A stretch of 64,000 bases of DNA, taken from NCBI RefSeq assembly GCF_002854065.1, contig NZ_CP024147.1; one strand, written 5' to 3'. Made by a program: the position numbers. Position 1 is the first letter of the stretch. Each line of letters opens with the position of its first letter. Shown here piece by piece: positions 35,946 through 38,900 of this stretch. This stretch comes from Escherichia coli. GTDB taxonomy: Bacteria; Pseudomonadota; Gammaproteobacteria; Enterobacterales; Enterobacteriaceae.

Positions 35946-38900
35946 TAATCTTTTTGTTTGAAAAATAAAGTCTTAGCGTTCTGCGTTAAGACTTTTTTTA
36001 TGGGTGCCGGATACAAAAAGGGCCGCAGGCTGTTACCCCTGCGGCCGGTTTCGGGCGCATATTGCCATCACGGCAGCCTGACGCCCGTTTTCATCTTACT
36101 TCCGGTTACGCCACCAGCTGACAATCGCTGCGGTAATAATTCCCGCCAGGATCGGTGCTGCCAGGTCGTGCCAGAAAATCATGGCAAACTGCGCGAGCGT
36201 CATATAGCCGCCTTGTTGTAATGACAACATTTTGCGGCTATTCTTGAATTGTTGATGGTTCAAGATTAGCCCCCGTTCTGTTGTCAGGTTTTACCTCTCA
36301 ACGTGCGGGGGTTTTCTCTTTCCAGCAACCAATGCCACCAGGGATAAAGCCCCCGCAACATTGCGCCTCACCGGATAACGCCGGCTTGGTGTGGATACTA
36401 CGACTCAATTCATCTTCACTTCATCCCTGAAATGTTTGCAATGAAGAGTGCATTCCGGTTTTTCAACAGCTGTTACAGTCGTTTCATGAGTGCTCTGGAT
36501 GATGCTTCCAGCTCGGGTTGCCAATATTTACTTGTGGAAGTGATAAAGACAAAAATGGCCGCAGGCTGTTACCCCTGCGGCCGGTTTCGGGCGCATATTG
36601 CCATCACGGCAGCCTGACGCCCGTTTTCACCTTACTTCCGGTTACGCCACCAGCCGACAATCGCTGCGGTAATAATTCCCGCCAGGATCGGTGCCGCCAG
36701 GTCGTGCCAGAAAGTCATGGCAAACTGCGCGAGCGTCATATAGCCGCCTTGTTGTAATGACAACATTTTGCGGCTATTCTTGAAGTGTCTGGTTTCAAGA
36801 TTAGCCCCCGTTTTGTTGTCAGGTTTTACCTCTCAACGTGCGGGGGTTTTCTCTTTCCAGCAACCAATGCCACCAGGGATAAAGCCCCCGCAACATTGCG
36901 CCTCACCGGATAACGCCGGCTTGGTGTGGATACTACGTCTCAATTCATCTTCACTTCATCCCTGAAATGTTTGCAATAAAGAGTACATTCCGGCTTTTCA
37001 ACAGCTGTTGCAGTGGTTTCGTGCAGGTTGTGGTACAGGCTCGCAATTCTGATTAACGACCTGTCCAGGTAGTATGAAGAAATACAATAAGCAGGAATTT
37101 ATATTATCTCCCCCGATTTCCGTCATCGGAGGAGATATAACTGTCAGGCAAATATCGTCATCAAATAGGCGGCAAACAGTGCCAGATGCGCTGCGCCATT
37201 GAGCACGTTAGTACGTCCGGTGGAGAAGGAGATATGGCACAGCACTAAAGAGGCCACCATCACCACCATTTCTGGCGCACCAAGTGCAAACTGCAATTCG
37301 TTACCCGTCATAAATGCAATTAGCGTGACGACAGGTACGGTAAGCGAAATTGTTGCTAACACTGAACCAAAGAACAGATTCATCGCGCGCTGGACCTGGT
37401 TGTTCAACACTGCTTTTAATGCACCTAAACCTTCCGGCGACAGAATCAACAGTGCCACCAGGAAGCCAGTAAAGGCGACAGGGGCATTCATGCTGTCGAG
37501 CAAAGTCTCCAGCGGGCTGGCGTTCATTTTGGTGACTGCAATAACGGCAATCAGGTGGATAATCAACCAGATAGCATGCCACAGGCTGCTATGGGCAGAC
37601 GGTTTACCGTGGTGCGGGTCGTCGTCATCACTGTCATCTTCGTGCTCGTAGACAAACAAACTTTGATGCGTTTTGGTCTGGATCAGCAAAAATACGCCAT
37701 ACATTGCCGCAGAAATTAATGCTACCAGTAACGCCTGACCGGTTGAAAAATTCGCCGCAGGCAGAGCCATTGGAAATACCAGTACGATTATCGCCAGGGG
37801 GAACAGCGCAATTAAATACTGCTTAATACCAAACAGATTCATATATTGGGTGGCAAACTTACGACCGCCCAACAATAATGAAAAGCCGACCAGCCCACCG
37901 GTAACAATCATAATGATCGAATAGAGCGTATCACGCATTAGCGTTGGCGCGGCGTCGCCGGTTGCCATTAAAGCTGAAATCAAACTGACTTCAAGAATAA
38001 CCACTGAAAGGCTAAGAATAAGCGAACCGTAAGGTTCTCCCAGGCGATGGGCTAATACGTCCGCATGACGGACAACACTAAAGGCGCTACTTAAAATACC
38101 AATAAGCGCAAGAAGATTGATGGCAATGACCACTGGTAGTGTCTGGCTGCTTCCCCACAGGAACAGCACTACCAGCGCCAGAACCGGGAAAATAAGCGAA
38201 GTCTCCTTGTGGCGGGTTTTTACCGCCTCTTGAGCATTTGACATTATGGTTATCCCTTTGCAGATGAATTTATCGAAAATGTAAAAAATAGGTAGGAAAA
38301 ATAACAGAAAGTGTCTGGATATCGGTAACATTTTACGAATTTTTACCCCGTTGTCGATTTTTTACTCATTGGGACATAAAAATAAGTAATACGTTTAGAC
38401 AATGTTTGTTGTAGCGTTTCTTAAGAACAGTCTGACATGAAAATTCTTATGTTTTGGCAAGAGTAGATATTGTTGACCACACTTAATGTTCAACTTTGTA
38501 AAAGGAGTCAACGATGCCGTATAAAACGAAAAGCGACCTGCCGGAAAGCGTAAAGCACGTTCTACCGTCTCATGCCCAGGATATCTATAAAGAAGCGTTC
38601 AACAGCGCATGGGATCAATATAAAGATAAAGAAGATCGGCGTGATGACGCCAGTCGCGAAGAAACCGCGCATAAAGTGGCCTGGGCTGCTGTGAAGCATG
38701 AATATGCCAAAGGGGATGATGATAAATGGCATAAAAAATCGTAAAACCGGTAGCTTAGTTAAAGCTATTCGTGCGGTGTTGCCTTGCAAGTGGTCCGTGG
38801 ATTGCATATTGTCCCGTTAGTGGTTTCAAAATGAGCAGTAAAAATGTCCGGAAGACACCAAATAGTTGTTGCAGGGAAGTATGCAGTGGCGGAGGTGTAA

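What the first reader, a model, noticed from the sequence alone, without database searches (positions are those of the whole stretch)
36016..37020. Two-copy ldr/rdl toxin-antitoxin array with diverged copies
K-12 carries three tandem LDR units here as I recall; this window has two 535-bp-period units. The Ldr peptides differ at two positions (I9T, S28G) and the rdl-like regions differ by small substitutions, so the copies are not freshly duplicated. Copy-number change by unequal crossing-over is likely.
Basis: partly seen in the sequence, partly recalled or inferred. Interest (0 to 1): 0.4.

Follow-up and report, generated by a model that had tools for sequence, protein, structure and literature searches.

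The report
Ordinary two-copy ldr/rdl toxin-antitoxin array
Between the E. coli genes kdsA and chaA the window carries two tandem copies of the well-known Ldr/Rdl small-toxin/antisense-RNA module, a natural variant seen in about a quarter of finished E. coli genomes and therefore ordinary.

Summary
Window 36013-37090 holds two tandem LDR units with a 536-nt period, lying between kdsA and chaA.

- **Toxins and antitoxins:** each unit encodes a 35-aa Ldr toxin on the minus strand (Pfam Ldr_toxin, E 1e-24 to 1e-26). Each also encodes an Rdl antisense RNA on the plus strand (Rfam rdlD, 83.6 and 91.8 bits against a cutoff of 50).
- **Peptide differences:** the two peptides differ at I9T and S29G.
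- **K-12:** MG1655 does have three units at this locus.
- **Population:** among 5424 complete E. coli genomes, about 24% carry one unit, 26% two, 47% three and 3% something else.
- **Match to a finished genome:** the array and 3 kb of flanks are 100% identical to strain CUWW06. A general assembly artefact is therefore very unlikely.
- **Age of the copies:** the units are old paralogs, 96.5% identical over the shared 459 columns. Unit 1 carries an Rdl 5'-end allele ("alpha") that K-12 lacks. Unit 2 combines an LdrB-type peptide with an rdlC-identical RNA.
- **Origin:** the array resembles the common (beta,alpha,gamma) three-copy arrays minus the beta unit, not a derivative of K-12's array. Unequal crossing-over is plausible but not polarised for this array.

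Already known; low interest. One small lead: the Rdl 5' tail is a diversity hot spot.

The parts
35094..35948 (+). kdsA (3-deoxy-8-phosphooctulonate synthase), left flank of the array
   Evidence: 284-aa ORF. Annotated as kdsA in the 100% identical CUWW06 locus and in K-12.
35967..35995 (+). Terminator-like hairpin plus T-run after kdsA
   Evidence: Terminator scan, 13-pair stem.
36013..36548 (.). LDR unit 1, kdsA-proximal. LdrA-type peptide with an 'alpha' Rdl 5' end.
   Evidence: Direct repeats. 99.1% identical to K-12 LDR-A, with the differences concentrated at the rdl 5' end.
36021..36046 (-). Intrinsic terminator of ldr-1 mRNA: 9-pair GC-rich hairpin followed by CTTTTTGT
   Evidence: Terminator scan.
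36096..36203 (-). ldr-1 CDS, a 35-aa toxin identical to K-12 LdrA and LdrC (I9, S29)
   Evidence: Pfam PF13940 Ldr_toxin, E 1.7e-24, 1-35/35. Translation. RefSeq WP_000170955.1 in the identical CUWW06 locus.
36204..36263 (-). Candidate leader reading frame of unit 1. A TTG at 36263 lies inside the Rdl-complementary stretch, with GGGGG 6 nt upstream. Here it is in frame with ldr, giving a 55-codon ORF.
   Evidence: ORF list and minus-strand ORF map. The function is inferred. The published ldrX coordinates could not be retrieved.
36252..36317 (+). rdl-1 antisense RNA ('alpha' 5' end, UUGAUGG...)
   Evidence: Rfam RF01813 rdlD, 83.6 bits against gathering score 50, full length 1-66/66. Fold: free 5' tail plus a long hairpin, z -4.5. 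Terminator-like stem plus T-run at 36293-36312.
36549..37090 (.). LDR unit 2, chaA-proximal. LdrB-type peptide with a 'gamma' Rdl. Its right end is the diverged terminal segment seen in K-12 LDR-C.
   Evidence: Direct repeats. 98.9% identical to K-12 LDR-C overall, but with ldrB's three diagnostic CDS bases.
36557..36582 (-). Intrinsic terminator of ldr-2 mRNA
   Evidence: Terminator scan.
36632..36739 (-). ldr-2 CDS, a 35-aa toxin identical to K-12 LdrB (T9, G29)
   Evidence: Pfam PF13940, E 3.1e-26. Translation. RefSeq WP_000170963.1 in CUWW06.
36736..36798 (-). Candidate leader ORF of unit 2. It runs 20 codons from a TTG inside the Rdl-complementary stretch. Its TGA stop overlaps the ldr ATG (ATATGA).
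   Evidence: ORF list and minus-strand map. The coupling role is inferred from the hok/mok-like model described in PMC4147584 and PMC8167048.
36787..36852 (+). rdl-2 antisense RNA ('gamma' 5' end, GUCUGGU...), identical to K-12 rdlC
   Evidence: Rfam RF01813, 91.8 bits. 100% identical to K-12 rdlC over 93 nt. Fold z -5.1.
37144..38244 (-). chaA (Na+/K+:H+ antiporter), right flank of the array
   Evidence: Annotation of the identical CUWW06 locus mapped to window coordinates. K-12 gene order.

Best explanation
The region is a natural two-unit allele of the chromosomal LDR (long direct repeat) array of Escherichia coli. It amounts to two complete Ldr/Rdl type I toxin-antitoxin modules between kdsA and chaA.

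**How each unit is thought to work.**
- The unit is transcribed leftward into an ldr mRNA. This has a long 5' UTR, a 35-codon ORF for a small hydrophobic inner-membrane toxin, and an intrinsic terminator.
- The opposite strand gives a ~66-nt Rdl RNA that is perfectly complementary to the 5' UTR, 49-114 nt upstream of the ldr ATG.
- Rdl pairing is thought to block translation of a short leader frame to which ldr translation is coupled. This is the hok/mok/sok-like model. Pairing also creates an RNase III substrate, so no toxin is made while Rdl is present.

**What is shown and what is inferred.** The sequence features are shown here. Toxicity, RNA pairing and RNase III cleavage are known from K-12 LdrA/LdrD and RdlD and are inferred for these near-identical copies.

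**Origin.** The two units are old paralogs. The copy number at this locus (1, 2, 3 or more) varies among strains, most probably through homologous recombination between units (unequal crossing-over or gene conversion). The window's (alpha,gamma) arrangement is one common outcome.
For: **Family membership.** Pfam Ldr_toxin matches both peptides over their full length. Rfam rdlD matches both RNAs over their full length, well above the gathering score. Terminator hairpins lie at the expected 3' ends of both ldr mRNAs and both Rdl RNAs.

**Locus and similarity to K-12.** The gene order is the same as in K-12 (kdsA-LDR-chaA), and the units are 99% identical to K-12 units.

**Independent genomes.** CUWW06 is 100% identical across the array and 3 kb of flanks. 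Hundreds of other complete genomes are at least 99% identical over 1.5 kb with two annotated Ldr genes.

**Copy-number histogram from concatenated-flank searches.**

| Units | Cumulative genomes (of 5424) |
|---|---|
| 1 or fewer | 1291 |
| 2 or fewer | 2725 |
| 3 or fewer | 5254 |

**Mosaic units.** All four I/T9-S/G29 combinations occur. The Rdl 5' end falls into three allele classes that are shuffled among positions.

**Rdl 5'-end allele counts.**

| Allele | Genomes | Places |
|---|---|---|
| alpha | 2795 | 2835 |
| beta | 3812 | 3856 |
| gamma | 3741 | 5218 |

The summed places are roughly consistent with the histogram.

**Array types elsewhere.** (beta,alpha,gamma) arrays with 535/536-nt spacing occur in E2865, E2863, E2855, 120899 and 12089.

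**Literature.**
- LDR repeats, the 35-aa Ldr and the ~60-nt Rdl; LdrD toxicity is relieved by RdlD; the ldrX leader model (PMC4147584, PMC8167048).
- An ldrD-rdlD dsRNA is captured in vivo and affected by RNase III (PMC7373196).
- LdrA is described as a pore-forming membrane toxin (PMC12643268).
- Lineage-specific duplications and losses of Ldr loci (PMC2887945).
Against: No expression, toxicity or RNA-pairing data exist for this strain. The sigma-70 scan found no promoter at its threshold. By eye, the rdl promoter (TTGTAA-17 nt-TATTCT, 36216-36244) matches only 8 of 12 positions, and the ldr promoter was not located.

In unit 1, a 1-nt insertion changes the frame relation between the candidate leader ORF and ldr. 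The coupling step may therefore differ between the two units.

Read depth for the window's own assembly cannot be checked.
Confidence: 0.9

Rival explanations
1. Assembly collapse: the source genome really has three units, and two similar 'gamma' units were merged into one chimeric unit 2.
For: Unit 2 looks like the left part of K-12 LDR-B (the three CDS-diagnostic bases) joined to the right part of LDR-C (rdlC-identical RNA and chaA-proximal end). A collapse would produce exactly this pattern. A K-12 MG1655 assembly (CP010441) shows such a two-unit B/C chimera where the reference has three.
Against: The T9/G29 'gamma' last unit also occurs in an O157:H7 complete genome that has two units. About 1434 complete genomes have two units. 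CUWW06 is 100% identical, and several other genomes are 99.8-99.9% identical, with the same structure. A 536-nt repeat is easily spanned by long or Sanger reads. Columns 385 and 423 of unit 2 do not follow a single B-to-C switch.
Confidence: 0.04
2. The array is a direct descendant of a K-12-like three-unit array (beta,gamma,gamma), formed by one unequal crossover that removed one unit.
For: K-12 has three units at this locus. Unit 2 is a B/C-like mosaic. A B/C deletion chimera exists in a K-12 lineage assembly.
Against: Unit 1 carries the 'alpha' Rdl 5' end (TTGATGG, with a 1-nt insertion). This allele is absent from K-12 rdlA, rdlB, rdlC and rdlD but present in 2795 genomes. A single crossover among K-12 units cannot create it. 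The window matches units 2 and 3 of the (beta,alpha,gamma) arrays instead.
Confidence: 0.05
3. One of the two units is a decaying, non-functional copy, so only one active module remains.
For: In unit 1 the candidate leader ORF is frame-shifted relative to the beta and gamma arrangement. No promoters passed the consensus scan. Chromosomal type I loci such as hok/sok are reported to be degenerate in some strains (PMC2887945 introduction).
Against: Both ldr ORFs are intact and identical to K-12 LdrA and LdrB. Both Rdl matches are full length and far above threshold. Both terminators are intact. The alpha allele is conserved at 99% identity or more in about 2700 genomes. K-12 ldrD, the experimentally toxic and regulated copy, has the same in-frame relation as alpha.
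Confidence: 0.06

Closest known systems
E. coli K-12 MG1655 LDR-A/B/C (ldrA-rdlA, ldrB-rdlB, ldrC-rdlC) between kdsA and chaA
   Same: The locus, orientation and unit length (535 vs 536 nt) are the same. Unit 1 is 99.1% identical to LDR-A, with an identical LdrA peptide. Unit 2 has an identical LdrB peptide and an rdl identical to rdlC.
   Different: The window has two units instead of three. Its unit 1 Rdl 5' end is the 'alpha' allele, which is not found in K-12. Its unit 2 combines features that K-12 splits between units B and C.
Two-unit arrays of other complete E. coli genomes (e.g. CUWW06, O157:H7 PNUSAE147325, APEC O78)
   Same: The (alpha,gamma) order is the same. CUWW06 is 100% identical. 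O157:H7 has the same Rdl alleles and the same T9/G29 last unit.
   Different: O157:H7 unit 1 encodes I9/G29 rather than I9/S29. Its unit 2 rdl has a 6-nt deletion in the stem, with the Rfam score falling to 66.6 bits. Other two-unit genomes carry (beta,alpha) or (beta,gamma) arrays instead.
K-12 ldrD/rdlD (the experimentally characterised member)
   Same: The architecture is the same: a 35-aa toxin and an antisense RNA opposite the 5' UTR with the same hairpin. The TTG leader start is in frame with the toxin, as in window unit 1.
   Different: It is a single unit at a different locus (bcsG-yhjV). The peptide is diverged, and the Rdl tail and loop differ.
hok/mok/sok of plasmid R1 and chromosomal homologues
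   Same: The proposed regulatory logic is the same: the antisense RNA pairs with the 5' UTR rather than the toxin start, and acts through a coupled leader frame (PMC4147584, PMC8167048, PMC8594479). The ldr 5' UTRs give sub-threshold Rfam 'sok' hits (30.5 and 27 bits against gathering score 59).
   Different: The toxin family is unrelated. The hits are below threshold. Leader coupling for ldr remains a hypothesis.
Other tandemly duplicated type I loci (ibs/sib, zor/orz)
   Same: They are tandem copies in one intergenic region with near-identical antisense RNAs. In those systems cognate-only repression has been shown (PMC2943612 abstract; PMC8167048).
   Different: The families differ. Discrimination between Rdl paralogs has not, to my knowledge, been tested.

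Membership tests
Ldr/Rdl type I toxin-antitoxin (LDR repeat) | 35-aa hydrophobic Ldr peptide (Pfam PF13940) | tested here: met
   Both peptides match 1-35/35, with E 1.7e-24 and 3.1e-26 and bits of 86 and 91.6 against a cutoff of 27. They are identical to K-12 LdrA and LdrB.
Ldr/Rdl type I toxin-antitoxin (LDR repeat) | Fst/Ldr superfamily signature: transmembrane helix with PXXXG, a conserved Trp, then a charged C-terminus | tested here: met
   Read directly from the translations: P17-I-L-A-G21, W30-W31, then RNRK. The signature is as described in PMC7472228 and PMC2887945.
Ldr/Rdl type I toxin-antitoxin (LDR repeat) | Cis-encoded ~60-66-nt Rdl RNA on the opposite strand, overlapping the ldr 5' UTR but not the start codon | tested here: met
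   Rfam RF01813 hits at 36252-36317 (83.6 bits) and 36787-36852 (91.8 bits) against a gathering score of 50. They lie 49-114 nt upstream of the ldr ATGs at 36203 and 36739.
Ldr/Rdl type I toxin-antitoxin (LDR repeat) | ~530-nt long direct repeat unit in tandem at the kdsA-chaA locus | tested here: met
   536-nt period. K-12 gene order. 99.1% and 98.9% identity to K-12 units.
Ldr/Rdl type I toxin-antitoxin (LDR repeat) | Transcription signals for both RNAs | tested here: inconclusive
   Terminator-like hairpins were found for both ldr mRNAs and both Rdl RNAs. No promoter reached the scan threshold. An 8/12 match (TTGTAA-17-TATTCT) sits 7 nt upstream of each rdl start, read by eye.
Ldr/Rdl type I toxin-antitoxin (LDR repeat) | Leader ORF (ldrX) whose initiation region is covered by Rdl and whose translation is coupled to ldr | tested here: inconclusive
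   Unit 2 has a 20-codon TTG ORF that starts inside the Rdl target and stops in ATATGA over the ldr ATG. In unit 1 the same TTG is in frame with ldr. The published ldrX coordinates were not obtainable.
Ldr/Rdl type I toxin-antitoxin (LDR repeat) | Toxicity of Ldr on overexpression and rescue by the cognate Rdl; stable mRNA with unstable antisense RNA | not testable with these tools
   Known for K-12 LdrD/RdlD and LdrA (PMC4147584, PMC7472228, PMC12643268). Inferred here from the identical peptides.
Copy-number variant produced by unequal crossing-over between tandem units | Different unit numbers at the same locus in related genomes | tested here: met
   1291 genomes have one unit, about 1434 have two, about 2529 have three, and about 170 have another arrangement, out of 5424.
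Copy-number variant produced by unequal crossing-over between tandem units | A chimeric unit with a single switch point relative to the parental units of the same lineage | tested here: inconclusive
   This is shown for K-12 assembly CP010441, where the switch lies inside the ldr CDS. For the window, no parental three-unit array from the same lineage was identified, and unit 2 is a multi-switch mosaic relative to K-12 B and C.

The most novel reading that the evidence does not exclude
The first ~7 nt of Rdl form a sharp diversity hot spot. They fall into three discrete allele classes (alpha, beta, gamma), and alpha and beta almost always occur once per genome. This stretch is also the start of the candidate leader ORF. 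The classes may be specificity determinants that keep tandem modules from cross-regulating, so that each copy is an independent switch. The alpha allele's 1-nt insertion would also change how ldr translation is coupled to the leader frame. The window would then carry two non-redundant modules, not two redundant copies.
Probability: 0.2. Interest if true: 0.4.

Novelty: already known. Interest (0 to 1): 0.1.

Why it matters
It matters little as a discovery. The module family, its tandem organisation at this locus and its lineage-specific gain and loss are all documented, and the exact sequence is already present and annotated in RefSeq genomes.

The useful outputs are practical:
- The two-copy state should not be flagged as an assembly error by default. 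About a quarter of finished E. coli genomes have it.
- K-12's three-copy (beta,gamma,gamma) array is only one of several common arrangements and is a poor universal reference.
- The discrete Rdl 5'-tail alleles give a cheap, testable handle on whether tandem type I modules cross-talk.

Tried and rejected
- **Tandem Repeats Finder** returned nothing because the 536-nt period exceeds its 500-nt limit. The repeat finder recovered the array.
- **The sigma-70 scan** found no promoter, so promoters are not claimed beyond an 8/12 match read by eye.
- **NCBIfam** has no model matching the 35-aa peptides.
- **Sub-threshold Rfam hits** to 'sok' on the ldr 5' UTR were treated as an organisational resemblance, not as membership. 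The AS-pc01 and Entero_5_CRE hits were treated as noise.
- **Literature not held.** Kawano 2012 (RNA Biol) and Kawano 2002 (DNA Res) could not be obtained. The published ldrX coordinates and the original K-12/O157 LDR comparison were therefore not checked.
- **Polarising the copy-number change** failed. I compared unit 1 with units 1 and 2 of a (beta,alpha,gamma) array (strain 12089). The only informative sites are probably private to that strain.
- **A single unequal crossover from the K-12 array** was rejected as the origin, because the alpha allele is absent from K-12.
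Full report

Yes. The repeat finder reports two direct-repeat families in register. One covers 36013-36252 / 36549-36788 (98% identical, spacing 536). The other covers 36259-36555 / 36794-37090 (87%, spacing 535). Together they make one two-unit tandem array. The GC-rich hairpin GGCCGCAGGCTGTTACCCCTGCGGCC recurs at 36021 and 36557.

Tandem Repeats Finder was silent only because its maximum period is 500.

The array lies between kdsA (35094-35948, +) and chaA (37144-38244, -).

**2. What is in each unit?**

- **Toxin genes.** On the minus strand there are two 35-codon ORFs, at 36096-36203 and 36632-36739. Both match Pfam Ldr_toxin (PF13940) over the full length, with E 1.7e-24 and 3.1e-26.
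- **Peptide differences.** The peptides are MTLAQFAMIFWHDLAAPILAGIITAAIVSWWRNRK and MTLAQFAMTFWHDLAAPILAGIITAAIVGWWRNRK. They differ at I9T and S29G.
- **Antisense RNAs.** On the plus strand, Rfam's rdlD model (RF01813, gathering score 50) matches full length at 36252-36317 (83.6 bits) and 36787-36852 (91.8 bits). These are the only rdl hits in the 64-kb window.
- **RNA folds.** Each Rdl folds into a free 5' tail plus a long interrupted hairpin, with z-scores of -4.5 and -5.1.
- **Terminators.** Terminator-like hairpins with T-runs sit at the 3' end of each ldr mRNA (36046-36021 and 36582-36557, minus strand). They also sit at the end of each Rdl.
- **Promoters.** No promoter reached the consensus-scan threshold. 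By eye, TTGTAA-17 nt-TATTCT (36216-36244, and its equivalent in unit 2) lies 7 nt upstream of each rdl start.

**3. Comparison with K-12.**

MG1655 has three units at this locus, ldrA/rdlA, ldrB/rdlB and ldrC/rdlC.

- **Unit 1** is 99.1% identical to LDR-A and encodes the LdrA (= LdrC) peptide.
- **Unit 2** is 98.9% identical to LDR-C overall. It carries ldrB's three diagnostic CDS bases, so it encodes the LdrB peptide. Its rdl is 100% identical to rdlC over 93 nt.
- **The two window units** are 96.5% identical to each other over the shared 459 columns. They are 57% identical over the last 77 columns, where the chaA-proximal unit ends in unique sequence.

**4. How common is a two-unit array?**

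I concatenated the two flanks and used the search tool's joining rule. Under that rule, pieces are joined only if they lie no further apart than half the query length plus 500 nt. This turns the '80% or more covered in one place' count into a cumulative histogram of array length over 5424 complete E. coli genomes.

| Query (nt) | Units joined | Genomes |
|---|---|---|
| 800 | 1 or fewer | 1291 |
| 2000 | 2 or fewer | 2725 |
| 3000 | 3 or fewer | 5254 |

The listed spans confirm the method: 1342 for one unit, 3072-3078 for two, and 4611-4614 for three.

This gives roughly 24% with one unit, 26% with two, 47% with three, and 3% that are longer or disrupted. The '3 or fewer' class includes a few two-unit arrays carrying an IS200C insertion.

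The window is 100% identical to strain CUWW06 across the array and 3 kb of flanks. It is at least 99% identical over 1.5 kb to 387 records, and every record listed carries two annotated Ldr genes.

The two-unit state is therefore a common natural allele. Collapse of the window's own assembly cannot be formally excluded without reads, but it is unlikely.

**5. How do the units relate across genomes?**

- Ldr residues 9 (I/T) and 29 (S/G) occur in all four combinations.
- The Rdl 5' end falls into three discrete alleles:
  - alpha, TTGATGG: window unit 1, O157:H7 unit 1 and strain 12089 unit 2.
  - beta, TT-CTGG: K-12 rdlA.
  - gamma, GTCT-GGT: window unit 2 and K-12 rdlB and rdlC.

Allele-specific 43-44-nt queries gave these counts:

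| Allele | Genomes | Places |
|---|---|---|
| alpha | 2795 | 2835 |
| beta | 3812 | 3856 |
| gamma | 3741 | 5218 |

The total of about 11,900 units is roughly consistent with the histogram.

Array types seen:
- **Three-unit arrays:** K-12-like (beta,gamma,gamma), and (beta,alpha,gamma) with 535/536-nt spacing in E2865, E2863, E2855, 120899 and 12089.
- **Two-unit arrays:** heterogeneous, with (alpha,gamma), (beta,alpha) and (beta,gamma) all present.

The window's (alpha,gamma) array therefore corresponds to units 2 and 3 of the (beta,alpha,gamma) type. It is not K-12's array minus one unit, because alpha is absent from all four K-12 rdl genes.

A direct example of a 3-to-2 change exists. K-12 MG1655 assembly CP010441 has two units, and its second unit is an exact ldrB/ldrC chimera. 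The switch lies inside the CDS and gives an I9/G29 peptide. This is either a real unequal crossover or a collapse in that assembly.

Recombination between units is therefore well supported as the general mechanism. Its direction for the window's array is not resolved.

**6. Mechanism.**

Shown here:
- Intact toxin ORFs and intact Rdl genes.
- Perfect cis-complementarity of each Rdl to its own ldr 5' UTR, 49-114 nt upstream of the start codon.
- Terminators for all four RNAs.

Taken from the literature on K-12 copies:
- LdrD overproduction is toxic, and RdlD relieves the toxicity. Rdl overlaps the 5' UTR, not the ribosome-binding site. A hok/mok/sok-like leader ORF (ldrX) has been proposed but not confirmed (PMC4147584, PMC8167048, PMC8594479).
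- An ldrD-rdlD dsRNA is captured in vivo, and RNase III affects the transcripts (PMC7373196).
- LdrA is described as a pore-forming membrane toxin (PMC12643268).
- Ldr loci evolve by lineage-specific duplication and loss (PMC2887945).

Inferred for the window: both modules work in the same way.

**7. A small lead.**

Nucleotide diversity among units peaks sharply at the Rdl 5' tail. It reaches 0.13-0.15 in alignment columns 221-250, against a mean of 0.03.

This stretch also holds a TTG with GGGGG 6 nt upstream, a candidate leader-ORF start.
- In beta and gamma units (window unit 2, 36736-36798) it opens a 20-codon frame. The TGA stop of that frame overlaps the ldr ATG (ATATGA).
- In alpha units (window unit 1) and in K-12 ldrD, a 1-nt indel puts it in frame with ldr, giving the 55-codon ORF at 36096-36263.

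Predicted duplexes of the 16-nt tail are -22 to -24 kcal/mol on the cognate target. For the alpha/gamma cross pairs they are -12.5 kcal/mol. Full-length duplexes remain very stable either way (-116 to -120 against -131 kcal/mol).

Whether the tail alleles confer cognate specificity, as shown for Sib/Ibs (PMC2943612), is untested. I rate it at about 0.2.

**8. Verdict.**

The finding is correct and well read. It describes a known system in a common natural configuration whose exact sequence is already annotated in RefSeq. Novelty: already known. Interest: low, about 0.1.

Noticed in passing
window 52983-53900 (- strand): Four tandem RtT RNA elements (RF00391, 131-134 bits, ~178-nt spacing) lie next to two tRNA genes (53700-53781 and 53819-53900). 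This looks like the tyrT-tyrV operon with its repeat array, another tandem repeat whose copy number could vary between strains.
   Followed up: no
window 36201-36354 and 36737-36889 (- strand): The ldr mRNA 5' UTRs, ending at the ldr ATG, give sub-threshold hits to Rfam 'sok' (RF01794): 27 and 30.5 bits against a gathering score of 59, with E 4e-3 and 4e-4. This fits the published remark that Ldr/Rdl loci resemble Hok/Sok in RNA organisation. It is not evidence of membership.
   Followed up: partly
window 36204-36263 vs 36736-36798 (- strand): A 1-nt indel at the rdl 5' end changes the frame of the TTG-initiated upstream ORF. In unit 1 (and in K-12 ldrD) it is in frame with ldr, giving 55 codons. 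In unit 2 (and in K-12 A/B/C) it is a separate 20-codon ORF ending in ATATGA over the ldr start.
   Followed up: partly
L003 (NZ_CP010441.1, K-12 MG1655) 1510-2630: This K-12 MG1655 assembly has only two LDR units. The second is an exact ldrB/ldrC chimera (peptide I9/G29) with the switch inside the CDS. It is either a laboratory-timescale unequal crossover or an assembly collapse.
   Followed up: partly
L004 (O157:H7 PNUSAE147325) 2275-2334: The second rdl of this O157:H7 genome has a 6-nt deletion (CCGTTT) in the 5' arm of the main stem, and its Rfam score drops to 66.6 bits. The same deletion removes part of the G-run upstream of the candidate leader start on the ldr strand.
   Followed up: partly
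L005 (BL21(RP), NZ_CP084683.1) 6008-6673: In this strain kdsA and one ldr unit are followed, just after the next unit's terminator hairpin, by nuoN instead of chaA. This is a large chromosomal rearrangement with a breakpoint in the LDR array.
   Followed up: no
L013 1631-2089 and L014 5999-7254: IS200C (strain EC21Z-144) and an IS3-family element (strain 19KM1831) are inserted between kdsA and the first LDR unit. The short kdsA-proximal spacer appears to be a recurrent IS target.
   Followed up: no
window 37090-37143: An inverted repeat (TATCTCCCCCGAT...ATCGGAGGAGATA) lies between the last LDR unit and the chaA stop codon. It is probably the chaA terminator. It is conserved in K-12 with one substitution.
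   Followed up: no
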